Virus record (IMG/VR): IMGVR_UViG_3300028805_000097
Coordinates: 1-64,000 of that record
Source: an uncultured virus (IMG/VR IMGVR_UViG_3300028805_000097)
Lineage: Duplodnaviria; Heunggongvirae; Uroviricota; Caudoviricetes
Length of the DNA stretch: 64,000 bases
Strand: one strand, 5' to 3'
Shown here: positions 13,224 through 60,634 of the stretch, one piece after another
Numbering within the stretch: position 1 is the first letter of the stretch
Layout: every line of letters starts with the position of its first letter
Notes under the pieces: generated by a model
Database searches by the model: none
Told to the model about the DNA's origin: nothing
Seen by the model: the letters and a program-made list of their open reading frames with translations, nothing else
Made by a program: the position numbers and the translations under genes

Positions 13224-16200
13224 TTATGGTCTTATATCGTCATAAGTACCCCTTTGATTATCGAAGCCTCTATCATCATATTGCAAATTTCTCCTTATAA
13301 ATGGAGTAAACTTATCAAGTGCTCTAATATAGACCGTACTCTTAGGTTTCATTGTTAATTCATCCCACTGCACACAGATGCAATAATTGTATCCTATAAG
13401 ATTAGACATTGTTTCATCATAATAAACCTTATACAATCTACCCTGCTTATTGTCTTCTTTCGACTGCATCAGTTTACCATAGTTGGCAACAAAGTTTTTC
13501 AAAGCTTCTCTTTCAGCTTTCCACCTCTTCTCATAAGGATTACCTTCAGATGAACCATCCATTGCGAATTCCTCCTTGATGAGTGTTAAATATTTTTTAA
13601 TGGATTCGTTTTTAAATGGGTGTTTAATGAATTCATTATCAAACTTCGGTCTGCTGAATCCCCAAGGTTTAAACCCACTTTTTCCAGCCACTATCTGATT
13701 TCTATATTGTGGAAGATTCTCTGTTGCCCAATATGCAAGTTCACTAGGTTTTCCAGTTTTTAAAACTTCTCCATTTGCCCCTATTATATTCCAATAATGA
13801 GAATATTGTTCTTTCTCTATGGATATCATTTCTTTTATGCTTGGACCCCAGAATACAACTTGGTCTTGTTCATCACCATGATGCCTTAATAATACACCGC
13901 TTGCTCTAAATATTACAGCTTCGTTACCATAACCATTAAAATCCACACTTCTGTCACCAATTAGGAAGGCAAAATCATATCCAGGATAAAGCTTCTGTTT
14001 ACCAAAACTAGTATATGCTAAATCTTCAACATCTGGTGTCCCACCAGTGAAACCTTTCTGTGCAACACTATATGCATTACTTGTGAAATGTATACACCAT
14101 TCATTTTTAACCAATCTGATGAAATCCATTATCATCCATGATGGAAGGTCTGAATAATGAACATAGTTATGTGCATTATCAAGCAATTTGTTAAATAATT
14201 TATTCCTTTCTAAAGCATTTATAAGTTTATTCAGAAAATCATCATCATATGCCAAATTATAATCACTACTAAGTTCATCACAAAGTTCATCAATATCATC
14301 ATAGTATCCAGACACATCTTCAGAAAATTTCTCAAGTATATATGGGCAATGACGAATTAAATCTTCTACTTTATCTCTGTCTGAAGCTTTCTCAGCCCAT
14401 TGGAAATATTTGTACAATGGCATACCATAGTTATTATCAAGAAACTCATTTAGTGGTTCTTTAGATTCTGTTATAGAGTTTGACTTATCATATGACGCTG
14501 AGAATAACTTAAATAGTTTATCAAGGTAACCAGTTCTTCTAAGTACCTTATACACTATATTTCCCGCACCGTTTTCTCCACGCTTTGTGAGGCTCTTCTT
14601 TCTTAAATCCTTTACCTTATCCCATAGGTAATGAGCATCCTCACCAATCTTACTTACTTCATATTCATCATTAGTTGATGATAATGCATCACACATATCA
14701 TCAATAATTGTCATTATCTCAGCCGCCTTATCCTTTATATTGAACTTATTAAGGCCAATATTCTTTATACTATGTGGGTTAGGCTTTCTAATCCACACAT
14801 TTTCCTCAAGGTCATATATTCCCCCAGCCTCTGGATTCTCTCCAATATTCTGCACATACAACTCAACAGGGAAACCCATTATCTTAAGCCCCTCATGTTC
14901 ATTGTTCCACTCATTCTTCTTCGAGTCTAGATATTGTCTAACAAATTCAGTCTTACTGTCAATTTCATTAAAATCTACTATAAGATGAAGGTCAATGTCA
15001 GAGAACTTAGACCAATTGAAATTACATATAGAGCCAGTAATTATTATACCCTTAGGTTCAACCCAGGTGAGATTTACAAACTCCCAGAAATCATCAGCAA
15101 TGTCAAGTAATTTTAACCTAACTCTAGAATTTAGTGTTTCCTCATCCTTCCATATCTTAGGAGGGAGGGTGTCACGTTTCTTGAATGAAGACAGGTCAAC
15201 CTCTGATGAGGAAACTTCTGGTTCAAGATTCTCATTAACTACAAAAGAACCAACTTTCTTAATTTGTTCTGGATAGAAAGCAACCCATTCCTCATTTAAG
15301 TCTCCATTATAATACACTCCATCATATCCCTCTGATTCAAGATATTCCCTAAATTCATCTGATGCTTCCTTTGAATTAGCCTCAGACAATTTATCCATGT
15401 CTTCTCCCGTTGCTATATATGGATTTCTTATATTTAAATAGCACTCCATCACAACACCATTTCTTCCAGCATACTGCCCAGCATATATATCATTATCACC
15501 ATAGAAATAAAAGCCAGTTCCTAACCATCCTGGGTCAGTACTTGTGCCTATCATCTTACTGTCAAATGTATCAAACTTGTTTGGTGTTCCATGTTTGACA
15601 ATTCCAGGCATCCTATTTTCGTCAACAACTTTACTAACATCCTCATTGTACCAAAAGTCATCAGCATCTACATTTTCCCAGTCTCCGAACCAACTCTTGA
15701 ATGCTTCAGAATATATCTCTTTGTTACTTGCCTTTGATATTTCATTAATCGTCTTCATAGACTTTTTTGACTCATATGCGAAACCTCCCTGTGGCTTTAT
15801 ACCCTCAGAGTAGAATCTATCTATTTCTCCAAGTACATAACGATAATCTGCTGATGGATAGAAAGCACTTATTTCTCCTCCATCATGGAATATGTCAACG
15901 TAGAACTTCTCACCTTCATAAGATGACACTATTTGTCTCAATACCCTTTCCTGTTCCCATGTAGGTTCTGCACCAATATCTATTGACCTCTCTAACACTC
16001 TTATATTACCAAGTTCAACAAACTGAAATTTATCATGTATACCAGGTATTCTCTGCACATCGTTGTGTTCACCTTCAGTATACAGAACGACACCATTACT
16101 TAATACGAACCCTCTACAGTCCTTAAAATACTCGCCATGAGGTAGAAGTTTCATGGCAATATCGTTAAGCTCCTGTGGGTTGTTTATATCATAGGACGAG

Positions 16201-17231
16201 TCTGAATACAATTCAGTTGTATCGAACTTAGACTGTCCGTACTTAAGCATATCAGCCTCAATCCTCTTTGCAATTTTCTCTCCGAATACTTCTTCAAGGT
16301 CATCATAGTAAGCCCAATCTCCACCCATAGTATGGTAGGTCTGATTATCAAGGTAAGTTATCTCAAACTCTACGTTGAAATCTTCTATATAAGCCATCTT
16401 ATTCTCTGGCGTATCTGGTATCTCATTGTCAGCAAGCCATTCCTGGTATTCCTCTTCATCGTATGTCCATTCATCACACTTCACTTCACCTACTTCAGAC
16501 ATATCGATGTTTGCAATCCTGTTGCCGTATGATTCTTCCACAGTACCCTCGTGATAATAGTTTCCACCAACAGGAGGGTCACTGCTCTCAGCACCAATTG
16601 AGAATTTGTCAACCTCTGGTGCTGCTTCATTAATAAAGCCTTCCCTACGAACAGCATCCTCACCAAGAACGTTAGCCATTATAACCCCAAAATCCTGGTC
16701 TCTAACACTCATATATGTATCTTCGTTACCAGACCTTTCACACCAGTTATAGAAAATCTCATCCCTCATCCATTCGATAGGGTATCTCTCACCCTTTTCA
16801 GTGAGTATTCTATAACAGTTATTAAGACCTTCTCTAGTATGTCCACAGAAATATTCCACCTTAGGACTATACCCAGATATATCAAGGCATGAATTTCTTG
16901 ATGTTACGTGAACACTATTCATTACTTGGAATTCTTTACCCAAGTCAGATTTAGGTACTTCTATTGAGAAACAAGCACCTCTATTAAAGCTACCATCATT
17001 TTCTAACGAAAACCAATTTATACCATGAGTTTCACCATGCTGTCTGCCCTCGCCTGCACATACCCTGTTTGTTTTTAATATGTTAACAAGAGCCAGTATG
17101 TCAGTCCCATGATATAACTTAACAGTAACGTCGTTATGGCTGACAATATCGTTACTGCCAGCCATAATTTCGTTTAATTCATTTTTCAATGCTATTAAAC
17201 TGTTCTCGTTAAATCTAATAGTCTTTCCCAT
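13224..17231 (-). CDS. Large polyvalent protein: ART-like domains plus pol-beta nucleotidyltransferase domain
   Basis: LYHGT; FKSWFGDWE..KHGT..GTGFYF..EEWVAF; ITGSICNFNWSKFSDIDLHL; IHFTS..GF..YG..QVV. Confidence 0.75.
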   Translation of the reverse strand: MGKTIRFNENSLIALKNELNEIMAGSNDIVSHNDVTVKLYHGTDILALVNILKTNRVCAGEGRQHGETHGINWFSLENDGSFNRGACFSIEVPKSDLGKEFQVMNSVHVTSRNSCLDISGYSPKVEYFCGHTREGLNNCYRILTEKGERYPIEWMRDEIFYNWCERSGNEDTYMSVRDQDFGVIMANVLGEDAVRREGFINEAAPEVDKFSIGAESSDPPVGGNYYHEGTVEESYGNRIANIDMSEVGEVKCDEWTYDEEEYQEWLADNEIPDTPENKMAYIEDFNVEFEITYLDNQTYHTMGGDWAYYDDLEEVFGEKIAKRIEADMLKYGQSKFDTTELYSDSSYDINNPQELNDIAMKLLPHGEYFKDCRGFVLSNGVVLYTEGEHNDVQRIPGIHDKFQFVELGNIRVLERSIDIGAEPTWEQERVLRQIVSSYEGEKFYVDIFHDGGEISAFYPSADYRYVLGEIDRFYSEGIKPQGGFAYESKKSMKTINEISKASNKEIYSEAFKSWFGDWENVDADDFWYNEDVSKVVDENRMPGIVKHGTPNKFDTFDSKMIGTSTDPGWLGTGFYFYGDNDIYAGQYAGRNGVVMECYLNIRNPYIATGEDMDKLSEANSKEASDEFREYLESEGYDGVYYNGDLNEEWVAFYPEQIKKVGSFVVNENLEPEVSSSEVDLSSFKKRDTLPPKIWKDEETLNSRVRLKLLDIADDFWEFVNLTWVEPKGIIITGSICNFNWSKFSDIDLHLIVDFNEIDSKTEFVRQYLDSKKNEWNNEHEGLKIMGFPVELYVQNIGENPEAGGIYDLEENVWIRKPNPHSIKNIGLNKFNIKDKAAEIMTIIDDMCDALSSTNDEYEVSKIGEDAHYLWDKVKDLRKKSLTKRGENGAGNIVYKVLRRTGYLDKLFKLFSASYDKSNSITESKEPLNEFLDNNYGMPLYKYFQWAEKASDRDKVEDLIRHCPYILEKFSEDVSGYYDDIDELCDELSSDYNLAYDDDFLNKLINALERNKLFNKLLDNAHNYVHYSDLPSWMIMDFIRLVKNEWCIHFTSNAYSVAQKGFTGGTPDVEDLAYTSFGKQKLYPGYDFAFLIGDRSVDFNGYGNEAVIFRASGVLLRHHGDEQDQVVFWGPSIKEMISIEKEQYSHYWNIIGANGEVLKTGKPSELAYWATENLPQYRNQIVAGKSGFKPWGFSRPKFDNEFIKHPFKNESIKKYLTLIKEEFAMDGSSEGNPYEKRWKAEREALKNFVANYGKLMQSKEDNKQGRLYKVYYDETMSNLIGYNYCICVQWDELTMKPKSTVYIRALDKFTPFIRRNLQYDDRGFDNQRGTYDDIRP

Positions 17232-54933: not shown

Positions 54934-55521
54934 TTAGTAGGCTGCGGCTACGGCTACTGCATAGGCAGGTTCGGGTTCGTAGTCGAAATCGGTGATAGCA
55001 ATTTCGTAGGTGGTGTGGTTGGCAGTGAGACGTGTCACGTTGCGAACACTGACGGTGCGATACTCTACGGGTGCGTAGGTCTTAGATGCCTTAGACGTGT
55101 AACGTTTCTCGGTCTGTTCGTCCTCCTCGGTGTAGGGCAGTCCGTTGTTGAACTTACCATCAGCGTAGTTAGTGCCGTTCATGTAGATGATGCAGGGGTT
55201 GTTAGTGGACTTGTAGCGCATCAGCAGATTAGGGATAAGGGTCTCAATGTTATCGTTGCCGCCTTTGGTGTAATCTTCGCCCAAAGCCTTAGACATGGCA
55301 CGTTCGTAGTCGATGCCGAATTGATAGTTAACATGATAGCGGTTGGTGGGATGAAAATCCAGAGTATCAATGTGAATTTTCTCGCTGCCGTCGGTAGGGT
55401 ACTTGTTAAGCTTAATGCCTACCTCCGCATACAGGGTTACAAACTGACCGCCCAACTTAGCGGCTTTCAAAATCTCTACCATCTCTTTGAGTGTGGTTAC
55501 TCTTACAACTTGGTTTGCCAT
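54934..55521 (-). CDS. Hypothetical early protein
   Basis: Own promoter (55582-55591) and terminator; strong codon bias. Confidence 0.75.
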   Translation of the reverse strand: MANQVVRVTTLKEMVEILKAAKLGGQFVTLYAEVGIKLNKYPTDGSEKIHIDTLDFHPTNRYHVNYQFGIDYERAMSKALGEDYTKGGNDNIETLIPNLLMRYKSTNNPCIIYMNGTNYADGKFNNGLPYTEEDEQTEKRYTSKASKTYAPVEYRTVSVRNVTRLTANHTTYEIAITDFDYEPEPAYAVAVAAAY

Positions 55522-55740
55522 AGAGCTAAAAAATTTTGTTTATTAATAGTGTTAATTGTGGTGTGAAATTCAATTTCACGCTGCAAAGTTACGACATTTC
55601 CAAATAATAACCAAAGAATTTAACGTTTTTTATGAAAAAAGTTTTCTTACACCCTGCAATTGGGTTTGCAGGTACAAAGATACGGAAACTGATGCAGGTG
55701 GATGCAGGTTTTTATACGTATAATTCAAAAGTAATAAATC

Positions 55741-56256: not shown

Positions 56257-56979
56257 TTAGATATATTTAACCAGCAAAGCCATAACCTTTGGGCTTTCCT
56301 TTAGCTTGTTGATAGCTTTTTCCGAGATTTGGCGTACACGTTCCTCAGTAAGTCCGAGACGTTCCGCAATAATGAACTTAGATACTGGCATGGTCTCAAT
56401 GCCGAATAGGTTGCGCACGATGATTATTTCCCTTTGATTGAGTATTGCACGCATGGCACGCAGGATGTCAGTCAATAGGCTTGCATCTGACTCCTTATCG
56501 AAATGCTGACAATAAACGTCTGCAAGGGTTGTGTCTGAATCGTCGTAGGCTGGAGCATCAAGTGATGTGTGGGTGTTGGCAGATGTAGGGTGATAGTCAG
56601 CGACGATGCGTGATGTGTGAGTGATAGCCAACATGATATACTTGCGGATGCTGAATACCGCATGACTAATGAACTTAAAACCCTTAGTGGTGTCGAAGGT
56701 GTCAACGGCTGCAATCAGTCCGAGATTGCCCTCATTAACAAGGTCTAAGATAGTGAGTGAGCCACGACAATAATTGTACTGCTTGGCGATTGATACAACA
56801 AAGCGAAGGTTGCAATTAACCAGCATATCCTTAGCCTGCTTGTTTCCATCCTGCGCTGCAAGTGCAAGGTCAATTTCCTGCTCAATAGTCAGAATAGGAA
56901 AGTTAGCGATTGTTGCAAGGTAGGCGGCTAATTCGGGGGTGCGCTCTACCGACGTTTTTTCAATTCTAATTTGTCTCAT
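56257..56979 (-). CDS. Sigma70-family RNA polymerase sigma factor (compact, RpoD/RpoH-like)
   Basis: NLRFVVSIAKQY, DLVNEGNLGLI.AV..FD..KGFKFISHA, SLDAP, GLTEERVRQI. Confidence 0.92.
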   Translation of the reverse strand: MRQIRIEKTSVERTPELAAYLATIANFPILTIEQEIDLALAAQDGNKQAKDMLVNCNLRFVVSIAKQYNYCRGSLTILDLVNEGNLGLIAAVDTFDTTKGFKFISHAVFSIRKYIMLAITHTSRIVADYHPTSANTHTSLDAPAYDDSDTTLADVYCQHFDKESDASLLTDILRAMRAILNQREIIIVRNLFGIETMPVSKFIIAERLGLTEERVRQISEKAINKLKESPKVMALLVKYI

Positions 56980-57097
56980 AATAATGTTGTATTAAAAGTT
57001 ACTACCTTTGCGGAGTGCATCGGTTTTCGCTGGCAAAGGTAATAATAATATTTCATACTACCAAAGATTTTAACGTTTTTTATGAAAAAAGTGTGTT

Positions 57098-57323: not shown

Positions 57324-58832
57324 TTACTTGTTGTCGAATTTAAGTTTGAATAGGTCTTTTTGTTCAACGTCAACAAAAACCAGTTCTTTCTTGGCTCTTG
57401 TATAGGCTACATATTGCAGGTTGCGCTCTTGTTGGTATTGCCAATCAAGCTGATTTTTCCATGTCAACGGCAACTTGTTAGGCAGCAGGATAACGACACG
57501 ATTACTTTCCAAACCCTTAGACTTGTGGGCGGTTGAAAGCGTAACGGCATTCACGATATTTTCGTCACTGAAAATCTTATTAATATAGTCTTTAACACTT
57601 TCCAACTTGGAAACATTTTCACCGATGGCGAAGATACAATTAACTCTATCCATATAGGCTATATAGCGACCTGTTTCCTCCGCTTCTTCGGCAGTGCAAT
57701 TTTCCTTCTTGCAGATGTCCTTAACCAGCTTTTGTTTCTCAATCTCTACGTAACTTTCGAAACCCTTCATAGTCTTAGCCTCCGACTTGTCGATAAGGTT
57801 AATCAAACCTTCTGCAATATCACGACCTTTAACGATAGCGGTTACACCAGCTTGTATCAGTTTGAAACACATAGAGACCAACGGAGCAGTGGTGCGGCAA
57901 AGCACCATATCATTAGGCTGGAATAGTCCTAAAGTGATTTCAGTCACACGATTAACGTCACCTTCGATAGCACCATTATGTGCTTGTATTGCAGGAACGA
58001 TTTGCTGGGCAAGTTCAATCATAGCACGACCACAACGATAGTTAACGCTAAGTGGCAATTCTTTGGTATTAGGCAGGGTTGCAATCTTATCGAAACTATT
58101 GCAGTCAGCACCAGCAAAGCCGTTAATAGCTTGGTTGCGGTCGCCAACGGCAACAAAACGTCCTCTTCTTGCAGCATATAGCATCAGTTCACGCTGGGCG
58201 CAGTTAAGGTCTTGGCATTCGTCAATAAACACGAACTTGTAGGAAGGGATATAACACTTATAGGTCAAGGGTAAAACCAGCATATCGGTAAAATCAATTT
58301 CGGGTGCTGGCACATTATCCAGCTGATAGCAATCTTTCAGCAGGGCATTAACGATGGTCATTTCGTTACCCATAGTTACTATCTGATGTTCGTCGCATAT
58401 AGCATTAATTGAACTCATGTCACCAGACTGAACCAAATTAACCCTGCAAAGGTTAAATAGCTTGTTAGTGTTATTCACGATGGCGACAAAGTTCTTGTCA
58501 TTCCTATCAACCTTTTCACGTATAAAATTAATATATTTACGATTATTAATCTTAACCTTAGAGTTAACCTTGCGGAGCACTGCAAAGCCAAAAGAATGCA
58601 GGGTGGAAACGTCGGCATAGTTACCGATTTTCATTTCAAGTTCTTGTACGATAGCTTTATTAAAAGCCAAAAACTTTACGTCAAACTTGTTAAGACGTAA
58701 CAACTTGCAGCATTCCACAATCGTAGTGGTCTTACCGCTACCAGCAACCGCATTAATAGCTAAATTGCCTTGTCCGTTTGCTACTTCATTGAAGATAGCC
58801 ATCTGAAACTTTGAAAAATTCATTTTGCTCAT
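57324..58832 (-). CDS. SF1 UvrD/Rep-like helicase (second paralogue)
   Basis: AVAGSGKTTT, IDECQD, VGDRNQAI, NYRC, STAHKSKGLE, YVAYTRAK. Confidence 0.92.
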   Translation of the reverse strand: MSKMNFSKFQMAIFNEVANGQGNLAINAVAGSGKTTTIVECCKLLRLNKFDVKFLAFNKAIVQELEMKIGNYADVSTLHSFGFAVLRKVNSKVKINNRKYINFIREKVDRNDKNFVAIVNNTNKLFNLCRVNLVQSGDMSSINAICDEHQIVTMGNEMTIVNALLKDCYQLDNVPAPEIDFTDMLVLPLTYKCYIPSYKFVFIDECQDLNCAQRELMLYAARRGRFVAVGDRNQAINGFAGADCNSFDKIATLPNTKELPLSVNYRCGRAMIELAQQIVPAIQAHNGAIEGDVNRVTEITLGLFQPNDMVLCRTTAPLVSMCFKLIQAGVTAIVKGRDIAEGLINLIDKSEAKTMKGFESYVEIEKQKLVKDICKKENCTAEEAEETGRYIAYMDRVNCIFAIGENVSKLESVKDYINKIFSDENIVNAVTLSTAHKSKGLESNRVVILLPNKLPLTWKNQLDWQYQQERNLQYVAYTRAKKELVFVDVEQKDLFKLKFDNK

Positions 58833-58979
58833 AATAAATTAAATTAATATTAAACGATTTCGGCTGCAAAGTTAGGCATTTTTTGGCAACCAGCCAAAGA
58901 ATTTATGAAAAATTAAGATTTGTTTCAAATCGTTTACATTTGGCTTGCTGGATGGATGCTGGCTGGGTTTTCCGATTTC

Positions 58980-59026: not shown

Positions 59027-59302
59027 AACCGCAGGCTGGCAGGATGCAGGCTGGGTGTGCTGGTGTACTACCCAGCTGGTACACTGGTTCGCCTATATAT
59101 AGATTAATATATATTATAGCGTGTGGGTGCGTAGCTGAGGTTATGCTGGCGACACATTATCCAGCACGTCACGATACCTTGTGCTGACTCTCGTGTGCTC
59201 GTGTTGCCAGCACACTTACCTGCCTTCGTGCTCGTGTTGTGTAGGGAGGCACGCCTGGGCTGCTCCTGGAGGGTGCACCACCCGCATACACATTACGTAT
59301 TA

Positions 59303-59318
59303 TGTTTCACGTGAAACA
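59303..59318. promoter_or_regulatory. parS: parS (chromosomal ParB/Spo0J-binding palindrome)
   Basis: Exact TGTTTCACGTGAAACA in noncoding DNA. Confidence 0.8.
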
Positions 59319-59347
59319 CGTGAGACAATTGAGACACGTACACACAT

Positions 59348-59493
59348 AAAGAAAAATCCTGCTTATCTTCTCAGACCAGCAGGATAAAACCTAAAACCAT
59401 GAAAAACATGAATAACTAAAAACCTTTTGAATATTATTATGAGCAAATCGAGTTGTATCTTCCTATATATGTTGTAATGTACTTTTTTAAGTC
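59348..59493 (-). ncRNA. Candidate sRNA, unit 2
   Basis: Starts GACTTAAAAAAGTACAT; ends in a hairpin containing GTCTGAGAAGATA plus U-tract. Confidence 0.5.
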
Positions 59494-59497
59494 CTTT

Positions 59498-59601
59498 ATA
59501 AAAACTTATCTATCTTCGCAGACTGATAAGTTATTGATTAACTAATCCAAAACAAAATATAATGTGTTATGCCTATGTACCTTTATGTACTTTTTTAAGT
59601 C
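59498..59601 (-). ncRNA. Candidate sRNA, unit 1
   Basis: Directly behind promoter TAACTTTGCA (59604-59613); same 17-nt 5' end; hairpin containing GTCTGCGAAGATA plus U-tract. Confidence 0.55.
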
Positions 59602-59715
59602 GGTGCAAAGTTACACATTTTCCATGTAATAACCAAATCCCTTAACATTTATTATATATTATGCAGGGTACACCTTATCGTATTTCTTCTCACATTTGGA
59701 GTTGTAGAAAGTAAC

Positions 59716-59943
59716 TTAACGTGCCATAAATCTCGGTGAACCACCACGATGAGTGTCGATGTAGTAAACATCTTCCTTTACATCAGTCTTTTCGTAGGTA
59801 ACTTTCTCACCCATTAGTTTGGCTGCCCTCTTGCATTCTTTTACCGCTTCCCAATCGCAGCCAGTAGTCGTGCGATAATTCCAATCACCTCGCCACCAAT
59901 CTACCGAATATATGTTGGTCTTCTTTACAATCTTTCTTGCCAT
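59716..59943 (-). CDS. Small hypothetical early protein
   Basis: Operon ORF. Confidence 0.6.
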   Translation of the reverse strand: MARKIVKKTNIYSVDWWRGDWNYRTTTGCDWEAVKECKRAAKLMGEKVTYEKTDVKEDVYYIDTHRGGSPRFMAR

Positions 59944-59947
59944 AGTC

Positions 59948-60163
59948 TTAACTCTCTGCTATCATGTCTAATAACTCTTGTAAACTTAACTCTTCGTAAG
60001 CCTTGTTACCTCTGGAGATAAACAATGGCTTATGGGTTTCGTGGAATCTCTCCAGAGCCATAAGTAATGACTTCTGGGAATCAGCATTAAACCACTGCGT
60101 TTCTCTATCCAGAATCTTACCGCTTTTTGTTTGCCCTAATCCTACTCTAATAACGTTTGCCAT
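59948..60163 (-). CDS. Small hypothetical early protein (start MANVIR)
   Basis: AT-rich leader before ATG at 60163. Confidence 0.55.
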   Translation of the reverse strand: MANVIRVGLGQTKSGKILDRETQWFNADSQKSLLMALERFHETHKPLFISRGNKAYEELSLQELLDMIAES

Positions 60164-60167
60164 AATT

Positions 60168-60518
60168 TTAATTATTTTCAATAAAAAATACATCCGTGTA
60201 ATTACCTCCCATAAACTTCGGGGTTAACTTCTGTCTGCCCTTAAAGTCCTCCATTGCTTCTGTCCTATCGTTGAAATAGGTAATGTTCTGATAACCTACC
60301 AAGCCATTGTTATAGCGGATGGATGCAGGGACACCAAATCTATTCTCATATTTTTCCCCACAATCCACTTTAACCTCTGTGTAGGCTACTGCATACTTGC
60401 AAGCATTAAAAGAGCCACTAAAGACCTTTTTCTTGTCCTCTCCGATAACGTAATAGTTGTTATCAACACTGAAAGAAATTCGCTTGCCCTCTGTTGTAAA
60501 TGATTGCCTTGCTCTCAT
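60168..60518 (-). CDS. Hypothetical early protein
   Basis: Operon ORF. Confidence 0.6.
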   Translation of the reverse strand: MRARQSFTTEGKRISFSVDNNYYVIGEDKKKVFSGSFNACKYAVAYTEVKVDCGEKYENRFGVPASIRYNNGLVGYQNITYFNDRTEAMEDFKGRQKLTPKFMGGNYTDVFFIENN

Positions 60519-60532
60519 AACCTTATATGTTT

Positions 60533-60634
60533 TTAATCGTTCTTACCACAAGCAATCCAGCCAATCGGTTTACCATCGTAGGCGTAGCCTATTGCCTTGT
60601 GCTTGATTCCGTTAATATACTTATACTTCTTCAT
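60533..60634 (-). CDS. 33-aa microprotein (not in ORF track)
   Basis: MKKYKYINGIKHKAIGYAYDGKPIGWIACGKND; ATGA-coupled to upstream ORF. Confidence 0.45.
   Translation of the reverse strand: MKKYKYINGIKHKAIGYAYDGKPIGWIACGKND

What the first reader, a model, noticed from the sequence alone, without database searches (positions are those of the whole stretch)
59348..59650. Promoter-driven tandem pair of sRNA-like units bearing anti-start-codon sequences
Seen: a consensus promoter (TGTTAA-N4-TTTGG..TAACTTTGCA) fires into noncoding DNA made of two units. Both begin GACTTAAAAAAGTACAT and end in a terminator-like hairpin with a shared GTCTG(C/A)GAAGATA core but different outer stems (CTTATC/GATAAG versus ATCCTGCT/AGCAGGAT), a covariation-like pattern. 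Variable U-rich middles contain CAU-centred stretches (GGCAUAAC, GCUCAUAAUAAU, UUUUCAUGGUUUUAGGUUUU) that are antisense to A-rich Bacteroidota-style translation starts. Inference: phage base-pairing sRNAs silencing host or phage mRNAs, reminiscent of paralogous Bacteroides sRNA families (unverified).
Basis: partly seen in the sequence, partly recalled or inferred. Interest (0 to 1): 0.74.

Follow-up and report, generated by a model that had tools for sequence, protein, structure and literature searches.

The report
Phage small RNAs masking own gene starts
A large uncultured gut phage of Bacteroidota carries two promoter-driven small non-coding RNA units, and one of them is built to pair with the start codons of the phage's own neighbouring helicase and sigma-factor genes, most likely to hold back their translation.

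Summary
A host-type Bacteroidota promoter (59637-59606) fires into two ORF-free units. Each unit is a 17-nt box, an unstructured AU-rich stretch, and a GNRA-capped hairpin with a U-run.

The main new result concerns unit 2. Its stretch 59454-59434 is antisense to the start region of the helicase gene about 600 nt downstream. Among 228 candidate start regions of the 77-kb record, its two best partners are the next two genes downstream, helicase and sigma factor.

Eight distinct relatives keep the same module upstream of their helicase. In 7 of 8, the payload pairs with its own helicase start better than with at least 50 of 51 distant helicase starts, although payload and target sequences differ between lineages.

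Neither the box nor the hairpin apex is private to these units. The box is a clade-wide module-start motif. The apex is a widespread phage hairpin with a covarying stem.

The 3' part of unit 2 resembles the Bacteroides FopS seed (20 of 22 bases) but fails every family test I could run. Transcription is unproven: only low-depth metatranscriptome contigs cover the units.

Verdict: a new variant of same-strand phage antisense control, working like P1 c4. An earlier scan note on near-identical DNA from another record reported parS sites, not these units.

The parts
59606..59647 (-). Early promoter P1 of host (Bacteroidota sigma-ABfr) type: TGTTAA upstream element, -33 TTTG, 20-nt spacer, -7 TAACTTTG. 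The predicted +1 is G 59601.
   Evidence: The +1 is inferred by analogy: in true FopS loci the RNA starts a few nt after TTTG.
59585..59601 (-). Box 1 (GACTTAAAAAAGTACAT), starting at the predicted +1 of unit 1.
   Evidence: It is a clade-wide motif.
59497..59601 (-). Unit 1 (about 105 nt): box, then a 49-nt unstructured stretch (59584-59536), then hairpin 59532-59503 with U-run 59504-59500. No convincing target was found.
59477..59493 (-). Box 2, an exact copy of box 1, starting unit 2. It has no host-type promoter of its own.
59345..59493 (-). Unit 2 (about 146 nt): box, then a 91-nt unstructured payload (59476-59386), then hairpin 59385-59356 with U-run 59355-59347.
   Evidence: A strain 95-99% identical shows 0-1 differences here.
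59434..59454 (-). Anti-start-region core of unit 2 (AACUCGAUUUGCUCAUAAUAA). It is antisense to the helicase start region and, with flanks, to those of the sigma factor and ORF195.
   Evidence: (inverted repeat I1).
59386..59409 (-). FopS-seed-like stretch (UGUUUUUCAUGGUUUUAGGUUU) in the 3' part of the unit 2 payload.
   Evidence: RF04319, 23.5 bits, E 0.57; E 0.009 for this record. It is below the family cut-off.
59303..59318 (.). Perfect host-type parS palindrome, 37 nt downstream of the unit 2 hairpin (context).
58867..58898 (-). Promoter P2 (TTTG-N20-TAACTTTG) of the helicase gene.
58817..58837 (-). Helicase translation start region (-5 to +16, AUG at 58832), the predicted main target of unit 2. 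The gene spans 57324-58832.
56960..56986 (-). Sigma-factor translation start region (gene 56257-56979), the second-best predicted target.
55503..55523 (-). ORF195 translation start region (gene 54934-55521), ranked 7 of 228 here. Its homologue ranks 1 of 57 in the relative G005.

Best explanation
The locus encodes small non-coding RNAs of a phage-clade-specific modular design. Each module is a 5' box, a free payload and a 3' GNRA-capped terminator hairpin.

In this phage the host RNA polymerase starts at P1, with +1 at the first base of box 1. It makes unit 1. By read-through, processing or a box-linked start it also makes unit 2.

The unstructured payload of unit 2 pairs with the translation start region of the helicase mRNA made from P2 about 600 nt downstream (-6 to +14, about -19 kcal/mol). 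It pairs less perfectly with the start regions of the next two early genes, sigma factor and ORF195. This pairing would block initiation and perhaps create a double strand for RNase III. The result would be to limit or shut off synthesis of early replication and transcription proteins, an RNA counterpart of what T4 RegA does (RegA is recalled, not tested here).

Shown: the anatomy, the promoter class, the conserved fold, and the cognate, co-varying complementarity.

Inferred: transcription, RNA ends, action in trans, and the direction of the effect (repression).
For: (1) Promoter class: 15 matches against 2.15 expected, placed before genes.

(2) Ranking within this record: unit 2 segment 59476-59425 was tested against 228 ATG-ORF start regions. 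Rank 1 is the helicase (-19.1), rank 2 the sigma factor (-18.6), rank 7 ORF195 (-16.4). These are the next three genes on the same strand.

(3) Ranking in relatives:
- G005: ORF195 homologue and helicase rank 1 and 2 of 57.
- G004: helicase ranks 1 of 66 (z -5.0).
- G001: helicase ranks 2 of 68.

(4) Shuffled start regions reach the observed energy in 2/100, 11/100, 1/100 and 0/100 trials for the window, L003, G001 and G004.

(5) Eight distinct close relatives (helicase 68-100% identical) all have box, payload, hairpin and U-run upstream of the helicase. I compared each payload with its cognate start region and with 51 distant helicase start regions. The number of distant ones that do as well is 0, 1, 0, 0, 1, 1, 0 and 14 of 51, with mean z -2.9. 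The cross-matrix shows lineage-specific pairing although payloads and targets differ in sequence and register.

(6) The payload is unpaired in centroid folds and only the 3' hairpin is stable.

(7) By my reading of the payload sequences, 3 of 8 payloads contain no ATG and no ORF is conserved.

(8) In a strain 95-99% identical, unit 2 has 0-1 differences against 8 in the 136 nt downstream. Two differences in the helicase start region (58822, 58839) each turn a wobble or a mismatch into a Watson-Crick pair with the unchanged unit 2 (the mapping is mine).

(9) RNA-library contigs of two runs from one sheep-gut sample cover the units.
Against: - There is no proof of transcription or of RNA ends. 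The RNA-library evidence is low-depth assembled contigs (depth 2-7). They run across the predicted +1 and may derive from DNA.
- A 14-nt exact complement somewhere in the record is not rare: 108 of 300 shuffles of the units give 14 nt or more.
- A scan of the whole 550-nt upstream region has no power: 0-10 of 25 non-cognate start regions do as well.
- The payload boundaries were set by me from the fold, and the choice of adjacent genes as the test set is post hoc.
- One of the 8 relatives (L376) is not distinguishable from the controls (14 of 51).
- The 8 loci are not independent; they represent about 5-6 lineages.
- Helicase relatives at 41-57% identity show no such complement (mean z 0.2).
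- Unit 1 has no convincing target.
- Unit 2 has no promoter of its own.
- The simple terminator scan did not call either hairpin.
Confidence: 0.6

Rival explanations
1. Host-directed FopS mimic. The 3' part of unit 2 copies the seed of the Bacteroidales FopS sRNAs. It would repress host SusC-type transporter mRNAs at their start codons, or titrate the FopS-binding protein RbpB. This could operate alone or in addition to self-regulation.
For: - RF04319 is the best Rfam hit in the region: 23.5 bits, E 0.57 over all families, E 0.009 as the only match in the 77-kb record.
- 20 of 22 seed positions are identical to the Rfam consensus printed.
- The relative L003 keeps UUCAUG and UUAGAUUU.
- The true family is spread over gut and rumen Bacteroidales, the likely host range.
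- FopS represses susC homologues at the start codon, and a FopS sequence was already seen in a Caudovirales phage (PMC11697453; I read passages only).
Against: - The score is far below the family cut-off of 56 bits.
- The seed lies 85 nt or more inside the RNA. In 118 of 126 true loci the promoter sits 2-9 nt in front of the seed.
- None of the rows I could see (the print was cut) carries the phage's variant.
- Six of the eight relatives lack this stretch.
- The same stretch also resembles the -33 region of the phage's own early promoters.
- It also resembles an antisense copy of the helicase start of a relative: the whole L329 payload scores -18.8 against the L331 start region.
- The host is unknown, so no target could be tested.
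Confidence: 0.12
2. Cis-acting leader. P1 transcripts read through both hairpins into the helicase gene, and the anti-start stretch folds back on the start region of the same molecule. Long transcripts would then be untranslatable or cut by RNase III, and only P2 transcripts would be translated. Alternatively, the box plus hairpins form a termination and antitermination cassette of the nut type.
For: - The antisense stretch and its target lie on the same strand about 600 nt apart.
- The U-runs are short in some relatives (L335, L376).
- Unit 2 lacks a promoter of its own.
- The box sits at +1 and in front of hairpins with GNRA loops. This recalls boxA and boxB of lambda nut (recalled, not tested).
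Against: - Two to three hairpin and U-run terminators, a parS site and about 400 nt of GC-rich repeats lie between the two partners.
- Most relatives have U-runs of 7-8.
- Complementarity to the sigma factor and ORF195 starts, 2.4 and 3.9 kb away behind their own promoters, fits action in trans better.
Confidence: 0.15
3. DNA-level element. The two complementary stretches are inverted repeats of an invertible or recombining segment that carries parS and P2 (an inverton). Alternatively, the promoter plus AT-rich DNA is a transcription-activated replication origin beside the helicase gene.
For: - An inverted repeat of 21 nt (86%) flanks a 596-nt segment that holds a promoter.
- Invertons are common in Bacteroidota (recalled).
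- The units have 24-30% GC and lie beside parS, repeat-rich DNA and a helicase gene.
Against: - The right arm always covers the start codon, in different registers in different lineages. A recombination site has no reason to do that.
- The repeats are imperfect, with bulges.
- All 8 relatives have P2 facing the helicase.
- No strand-switch joints appear in 3 runs, though these are contigs only.
- None of the 12 neighbouring proteins scanned has a recombinase domain.
- The left arm sits in the unpaired part of a terminator-bounded module.
- The multi-target complementarity is left unexplained.
Confidence: 0.06
4. No dedicated function. The hairpins are ordinary terminators, the box is a generic intergenic signal, P1 is a leftover of cassette shuffling, and the complementarity is a by-product of duplicated promoter and leader pieces.
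For: - The box and the hairpin apex are generic motifs.
- In the same sample, contigs keep P1 but carry other DNA right after it (loose ends at 59603 and 59604).
- AU-rich sequences pair easily.
Against: - The cognate-specific complementarity recurs in 7 of 8 relatives with different sequences.
- Unit 2 is the most conserved part of the spacer in a diverged strain.
Confidence: 0.07

Closest known systems
c4 antisense RNA of phages P1 and P7 (immI region)
   Same: It is a phage-encoded small RNA that blocks translation by pairing around the ribosome-binding site of a phage gene (review PMC12197685; I read passages only). The RNA lies upstream of its target on the same strand, so it is not a classical opposite-strand antisense RNA (this gene order is recalled).
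   Different: - There is no sequence or structure homology: no c4 hit at E up to 10.
- The host phylum lacks Shine-Dalgarno-led initiation, so the start codon and its A-rich flanks are covered instead.
- The targets are replication and transcription genes of a large, apparently virulent T4-like phage, not an antirepressor of a temperate phage.
- The target has its own promoter.
- Here the RNA is one cassette of a reusable box, payload and hairpin scaffold.
FopS and GibS sRNAs of Bacteroides (Rfam RF04319; PMC11697453)
   Same: - The promoter is a sigma-ABfr promoter.
- An unstructured U-rich seed containing CAU pairs with start regions.
- There is a single 3' terminator hairpin with a GNRA loop.
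- 20 of 22 seed bases match.
   Different: - The score is 23.5 bits against a cut-off of 56.
- The seed is internal, not at the 5' end.
- The RNA is twice as long.
- The terminator differs.
- The best-supported targets are phage genes.
Opposite-strand phage antisense RNAs (P22 sar, lambda OOP)
   Same: They are small phage RNAs that repress a phage gene by pairing, and RNase III is involved for OOP (review PMC12197685; I read passages only).
   Different: Those are fully complementary cis-antisense transcripts. Here the RNA is encoded about 600 nt away on the same strand and pairs imperfectly.
T4 RegA translational repressor (recalled)
   Same: The logic is the same: several early mRNAs are shut off at their start regions.
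   Different: RegA is a protein, whereas here the proposed effector is an RNA. No homology was tested.

Membership tests
FopS (Rfam RF04319) | Covariance-model score at or above the gathering cut-off of 56 bits | tested here: not met
   The score is 23.5 bits, with E 0.57 and E 0.009 within the record.
FopS (Rfam RF04319) | Seed at the very 5' end, directly behind a TAnnTTTG promoter | tested here: not met
   118 of 126 true loci have the promoter 2-9 nt upstream of the seed. Here the seed starts 85 nt after box 2 and has no promoter.
FopS (Rfam RF04319) | R1' seed sequence | tested here: inconclusive
   20 of 22 positions match the consensus printed. L003 has a 1-nt deletion and an indel of about 9 nt relative to the window.
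FopS (Rfam RF04319) | Binding by RbpB and repression of susC-type mRNAs | not testable with these tools
   The host is unknown. No binding job was run.
c4-type same-strand antisense RNA (P1/P7) | Encoded upstream of the target on the same strand and complementary to its ribosome-binding region | tested here: met
c4-type same-strand antisense RNA (P1/P7) | Homology to the c4 RNA family | tested here: not met
   No c4 match among the 7 Rfam matches at E up to 10.
c4-type same-strand antisense RNA (P1/P7) | Cut out of a precursor transcript (by RNase P in P1; recalled) | not testable with these tools
   Only contigs were available, so no RNA ends could be seen.
Bacteroidota sigma-ABfr promoter | -33 TTTG and -7 TAnnTTTG about 20 nt apart, placed before transcription units | tested here: met
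   15 matches against 2.15 expected. The placement is shown.
Intrinsic terminator | Stable G+C-containing hairpin followed by a U-run | tested here: inconclusive
   The hairpins and U-runs are present and stable, but the consensus scan did not list them. The likely reason is the internal mismatch and, in unit 1, the AU-rich stem.
Inverton (invertible promoter) | Both orientations present and a site-specific recombinase nearby | tested here: not met
   All 8 relatives have the same orientation. There are no joints. None of the 12 neighbouring proteins scanned has a recombinase domain.

The most novel reading that the evidence does not exclude
A clade of large Bacteroidota phages uses a programmable small-RNA scaffold: a fixed 5' box, an exchangeable antisense payload and a fixed-shape GNRA hairpin. 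The payloads co-evolve with the start codons of the phage's own early genes. In this phage the scaffold has additionally captured the seed of the host's FopS RNAs. One small RNA would then both time the phage's replication genes and reach into the host's polysaccharide-uptake control. The box arrays in the 295-kb and 412-kb relatives would be batteries of such RNAs.
Probability: 0.15. Interest if true: 0.85.

Novelty: new variant of a known kind. Interest (0 to 1): 0.62.

Why it matters
- Small-RNA control is barely explored in phages of Bacteroidota, the dominant gut phylum. Translation there starts without Shine-Dalgarno pairing, and host sRNAs act by covering start codons.
- A phage RNA that covers the start codons of its own helicase and sigma-factor genes would be a simple timing device for early gene shut-off.
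- The finding gives directly testable pairs of RNA and target with natural compensatory variation across eight relatives.
- Two generic motifs turned up on the way: the 17-nt box, and a GNRA hairpin found in more than 100 phage contigs, often beside tRNA genes. Both are handles for annotating non-coding RNA in uncultured phages.
- The FopS-like seed, if functional, would link phage infection to host glycan uptake.

Tried and rejected
- blastn of the spacer against 50,697 phage records found no match.
- Whole-length duplex folding gave unnatural long loops and noisy ranks.
- Exact-complement length alone is not significant: 108 of 300 shuffles reach 14 nt.
- An ungapped complement score over 59 distinct helicase loci showed no general feature outside the close clade (mean z 0.2; 8 of 59 with z above 2).
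- An energy scan of the whole 550-nt upstream region had no power.
- The other two spacers, helicase to sigma and sigma to ORF195, hold no antisense copy of any of the three start regions. The best energies were -7.9 to -13.9.
- Unit 1 and the FopS-like stretch gave only spurious-looking partners among the phage start regions.
- Aligning the FopS-like stretch to six early promoters showed only partial likeness in the -33 region.
- Rfam on ten loci with the hairpin apex found only tRNAs and chance hits.
- A full-text search for the apex sequence found 0 papers.
- The apex is rare in host-family genomes. With one pattern it was found in 0 of 5 genomes. With a shorter pattern there were 27 matches in 24 of 201 genomes against 11 for the reversed control.
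- The scan with CGATTTGCTCATAATAA found 9 loci. The 7 outside the two related contigs looked unrelated in the context printed.
- Earlier-findings look-ups gave nothing on the units.
- Parts of the region without contig cover in the RNA runs (for example 58410-58742 and 59076-59186 in X1) say nothing.
- A portal search places the phage far from cultured ones (at most 37.6% identity).

Full report
**Context**

- The window is the first 64 kb of a 76,969-base linear IMG/VR virus record that CheckV rates 26% complete.
- It encodes a T4-type portal, a large terminase, thymidylate synthase, a ClpB-like ATPase, two UvrD-like helicases and a sigma-70-family sigma factor.
- The portal is at most 37.6% identical to any cultured phage. 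The nearest named ones are a Microcystis phage and Flavobacterium phages.
- A Bacteroidota host is inferred from the promoters. TTTG-N18-22-TAnnTTTG occurs 15 times against 2.15 expected (0 of 100 shuffles reach 15), almost always just upstream of genes on the coding strand.
- The runs that hold the sequence are from sheep gut by their records.

**The observation**

It lies in an 880-nt gene-free gap between a 75-aa ORF (59716-59943) and a UvrD-like helicase gene (57324-58832).

- Promoter P1: TGTTAA at 59647-59642, TTTG at 59637-59634, a 20-nt spacer, TAACTTTG at 59613-59606. It belongs to the same class as the promoters of the neighbouring early genes. It is the only one not followed by an ORF.
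- In true FopS loci of Bacteroidales the RNA begins a few bases after TTTG. By that rule P1 starts at G 59601, which is exactly the first base of the 17-nt box.
- The box recurs exactly at 59493-59477. These are the only two exact copies in the window.
- Each unit ends in a hairpin of the same shape: 8 bp, one mismatch, 4 bp GUCU/AGAU, GNGA loop. The hairpins lie at 59532-59503 and 59385-59356 and are followed by U-runs.
- In the centroid folds the hairpins are the only stable structure.
- The simple terminator scan did not call them.

**The shared elements are generic**

The box:
- With up to 2 mismatches it occurs 4-9 times in each of seven related virus records (G000-G006). G006 is the near-identical twin of the window's record.
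- 40 of the 41 copies lie on one strand. The reversed-pattern control gave 0-3 per record, with the 3 in G000.
- In the copies I read it sits in intergenic DNA, often directly at a stop codon or behind a TATA-like stretch, and often in front of a hairpin.
- In the 295-kb and 412-kb relatives it forms arrays.

The hairpin apex:
- Many copies lie directly upstream of phage tRNA genes. Others are followed by U-runs.
- I aligned all 60 distinct 39-nt contexts plus the window's two, with no row dropped although some look coding. The outer stem is paired in 80.9% of cells against 66.1% in shuffles (0 of 500 shuffles as high) and 36-48% when the partner is slid. The covariation score is 0.374 against 0.135.
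- Two of the outer pairs were fixed by my search pattern and say nothing.
- The apex is rare in genomes of the family of a Prevotella genome that I took as centre: 27 matches in 24 of 201 genomes against 11 for the control.

But box and apex do not show that the two units are paralogues of each other.

**What unit 2 does**

The repeat finder reported that 59454-59434 is the inverted complement (21 nt, 86%) of 58837-58817, which is the start region of the helicase gene. Both lie on the same strand, so an RNA from unit 2 is antisense to the helicase mRNA from -6 to +14, at -19.1 kcal/mol.

A 14-nt exact complement somewhere in the record is not rare in itself: 108 of 300 shuffles reach it. Its place is what stands out.

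- Among 228 ATG-ORF start regions of the record, the two best partners of segment 59476-59425 are the helicase and the sigma factor. The next gene, ORF195, ranks 7. These are the three genes that follow on the same strand, each behind its own host-type promoter.
- In the relative G005 (helicase 70% identical), the ORF195 homologue and the helicase rank 1 and 2 of 57.
- In G004 the helicase ranks 1 of 66 (z -5.0).
- In G001 it ranks 2 of 68.

**Relatives**

Helicase-guided searches gave 8 distinct close relatives (68-100% identity) and 51 further distinct start regions of more distant helicases.

- All 8 close relatives show the same order: upstream gene, box, a payload of 48-91 nt, a hairpin of the same shape with a U-run, a second box, repeat-rich DNA, a host-type promoter (found by the pattern in 3 of the 4 loci scanned, not in L376), and the helicase.
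- parS is present in 6 of 8. For four loci I found it by pattern with up to 2 mismatches; for the others I read it by eye.
- I took the payload as the stretch from box end to hairpin start. I compared its best duplex with the cognate start region against the 51 distant start regions. The number of distant ones that do as well is 0, 1, 0, 0, 1, 1, 0 and 14 of 51, with mean z -2.9.
- The payloads differ in sequence and cover different parts of the start region: -21 to +5 in G001 and G004, -6 to +14 here, and both in-frame AUGs in L335 and L376.
- Pairing is lineage-specific in the cross-matrix. The window's payload scores about -13.5 on G001 and G004 starts. Their payloads score -9 to -13 on the window-type starts, against -19.5 and -24.6 on their own.
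- In a strain 95-99% identical, unit 2 has at most one difference. Two differences in the helicase start region (58822 and 58839) both improve pairing with it (the mapping is mine).

This co-variation is the main evidence that the complementarity is selected.

**Limits**

- The 8 loci represent perhaps 5-6 independent lineages.
- The payload limits and the test set were chosen after seeing the data.
- A scan of the full 550-nt upstream region cannot separate cognate from non-cognate.
- Helicase relatives at 41-57% identity have no such element.
- Transcription is not shown. RNA-library contigs of two runs from one sheep-gut sample cover 59259-59633 and 59472-59707. They are low-depth contigs, they cross the predicted start, and they may derive from DNA.

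**Mechanism**

I think the most likely mechanism (about 0.6) is a trans-acting small RNA that covers the start codons of early phage mRNAs. In a phylum without Shine-Dalgarno-led initiation, this is how the host's own GibS and FopS RNAs repress translation (PMC11697453; passages read).

The nearest phage precedent is c4 of P1 and P7, which blocks the ribosome-binding site of the ant mRNA (review PMC12197685; passages read). c4 also lies upstream of its target on the same strand (recalled).

Rival readings are a fold-back within read-through P1 transcripts, a DNA-level inverted repeat or origin, and no function. The Rival explanations section weighs each of them.

**The FopS resemblance**

- The 3' part of unit 2 is the best Rfam hit of the region: RF04319, 23.5 bits, E 0.57, and E 0.009 as the only match in the record.
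- It shares 20 of 22 seed bases with the consensus.
- True FopS genes, found here from Prevotella and Segatella to Paludibacter and rumen MAGs, are about 70 nt long. In 118 of 126 loci the seed sits directly behind the promoter.
- The phage stretch fails the score cut-off and the architecture, and it is missing in six of the eight relatives.
- It is therefore not a family member.
- A mimic function is not excluded, but it rests on sequence likeness alone.
- The FopS paper already mentions a FopS sequence in a Caudovirales phage.

**Unit 1**

- Unit 1 is present only in the window lineage and in L003.
- It diverges strongly between the two, apart from the box and the hairpin.
- In L003 it has a 13-bp complement to the helicase leader (-12.7 kcal/mol).
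- In the window it has no convincing partner.
- In the same sample, other contigs keep P1 but continue with different DNA right after it. The units therefore behave as an exchangeable cassette.

**Verdict**

This is a new variant of same-strand antisense control, built on a clade-specific modular scaffold.

Noticed in passing
window 59303-59318: A perfect host-type parS palindrome lies 37 nt downstream of the unit 2 hairpin, the only one in the window. One-mismatch or perfect copies sit at the same place in 5 of the 7 other relatives.
   Followed up: partly
window 59290-58930, 57320-57100 and 56190-55620 (minus strand): Three paralogous GC-rich spacers are full of CCAGC/ACCAGC repeats. Each ends in a CTATATAGTATAT-like element and a host-type early promoter (for the helicase, sigma factor and ORF195). 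Nearly identical terminators follow the helicase (about 57301-57274) and the sigma factor (56232-56207). Their function is unknown; a protein-binding array or an origin are possibilities.
   Followed up: partly
window 56204-56186 (minus); G002:C1:158885-159872; G003:C1:210440-211648 and 237125-239516: The 17-nt box contains the palindrome ACTT-N4-AAGT plus AC. It forms one-strand arrays between small genes in complete 295-kb and 412-kb relatives. A palindromic variant follows the sigma-factor terminator here. It may be a phage promoter or initiator, or an RNA processing site.
   Followed up: partly
loci L063-L170 (IMG/VR): A GNRA hairpin with the conserved apex GGUCUG-N-GAAGAUA and a covarying stem occurs in more than 100 phage contigs, many directly upstream of tRNA genes in tRNA arrays. 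No Rfam family and no paper was found for it. The 5' hairpin of Rfam BTnc201 has the same apex.
   Followed up: partly
window 59603/59604: Contigs from the RNA libraries match 59604-60600 and then continue with unrelated DNA directly after the -7 box of P1. One of them reads like a short leader plus ATG. The same promoter therefore carries different cargo in co-occurring strains.
   Followed up: no
window 13224-17231 (minus): A 1335-aa protein carries an ADP-ribosyltransferase domain of the 'polyvalent protein' type (PF18760, E 4.5e-17).
   Followed up: no
loci L251, L270, L299 (genome contigs): Some true FopS copies lie directly behind tRNA genes instead of a promoter, for example in Segatella copri. 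This suggests release from tRNA co-transcripts.
   Followed up: no
window 59428-59400 (minus): The 5' part of the FopS-like stretch (GGUUUUUAGUUAUUCAUG) resembles the -33 region of the phage's early promoters (GGGAUUUGGUUAUUACAUGG in P1). It may be a decayed promoter.
   Followed up: partly
window 59409-59374 (minus): A 12-codon hydrophobic mini-ORF (MFFMVLGFILLV) overlaps the FopS-like stretch and runs into the 5' arm of the hairpin. It is disrupted by an indel in L003, so it is probably chance.
   Followed up: partly
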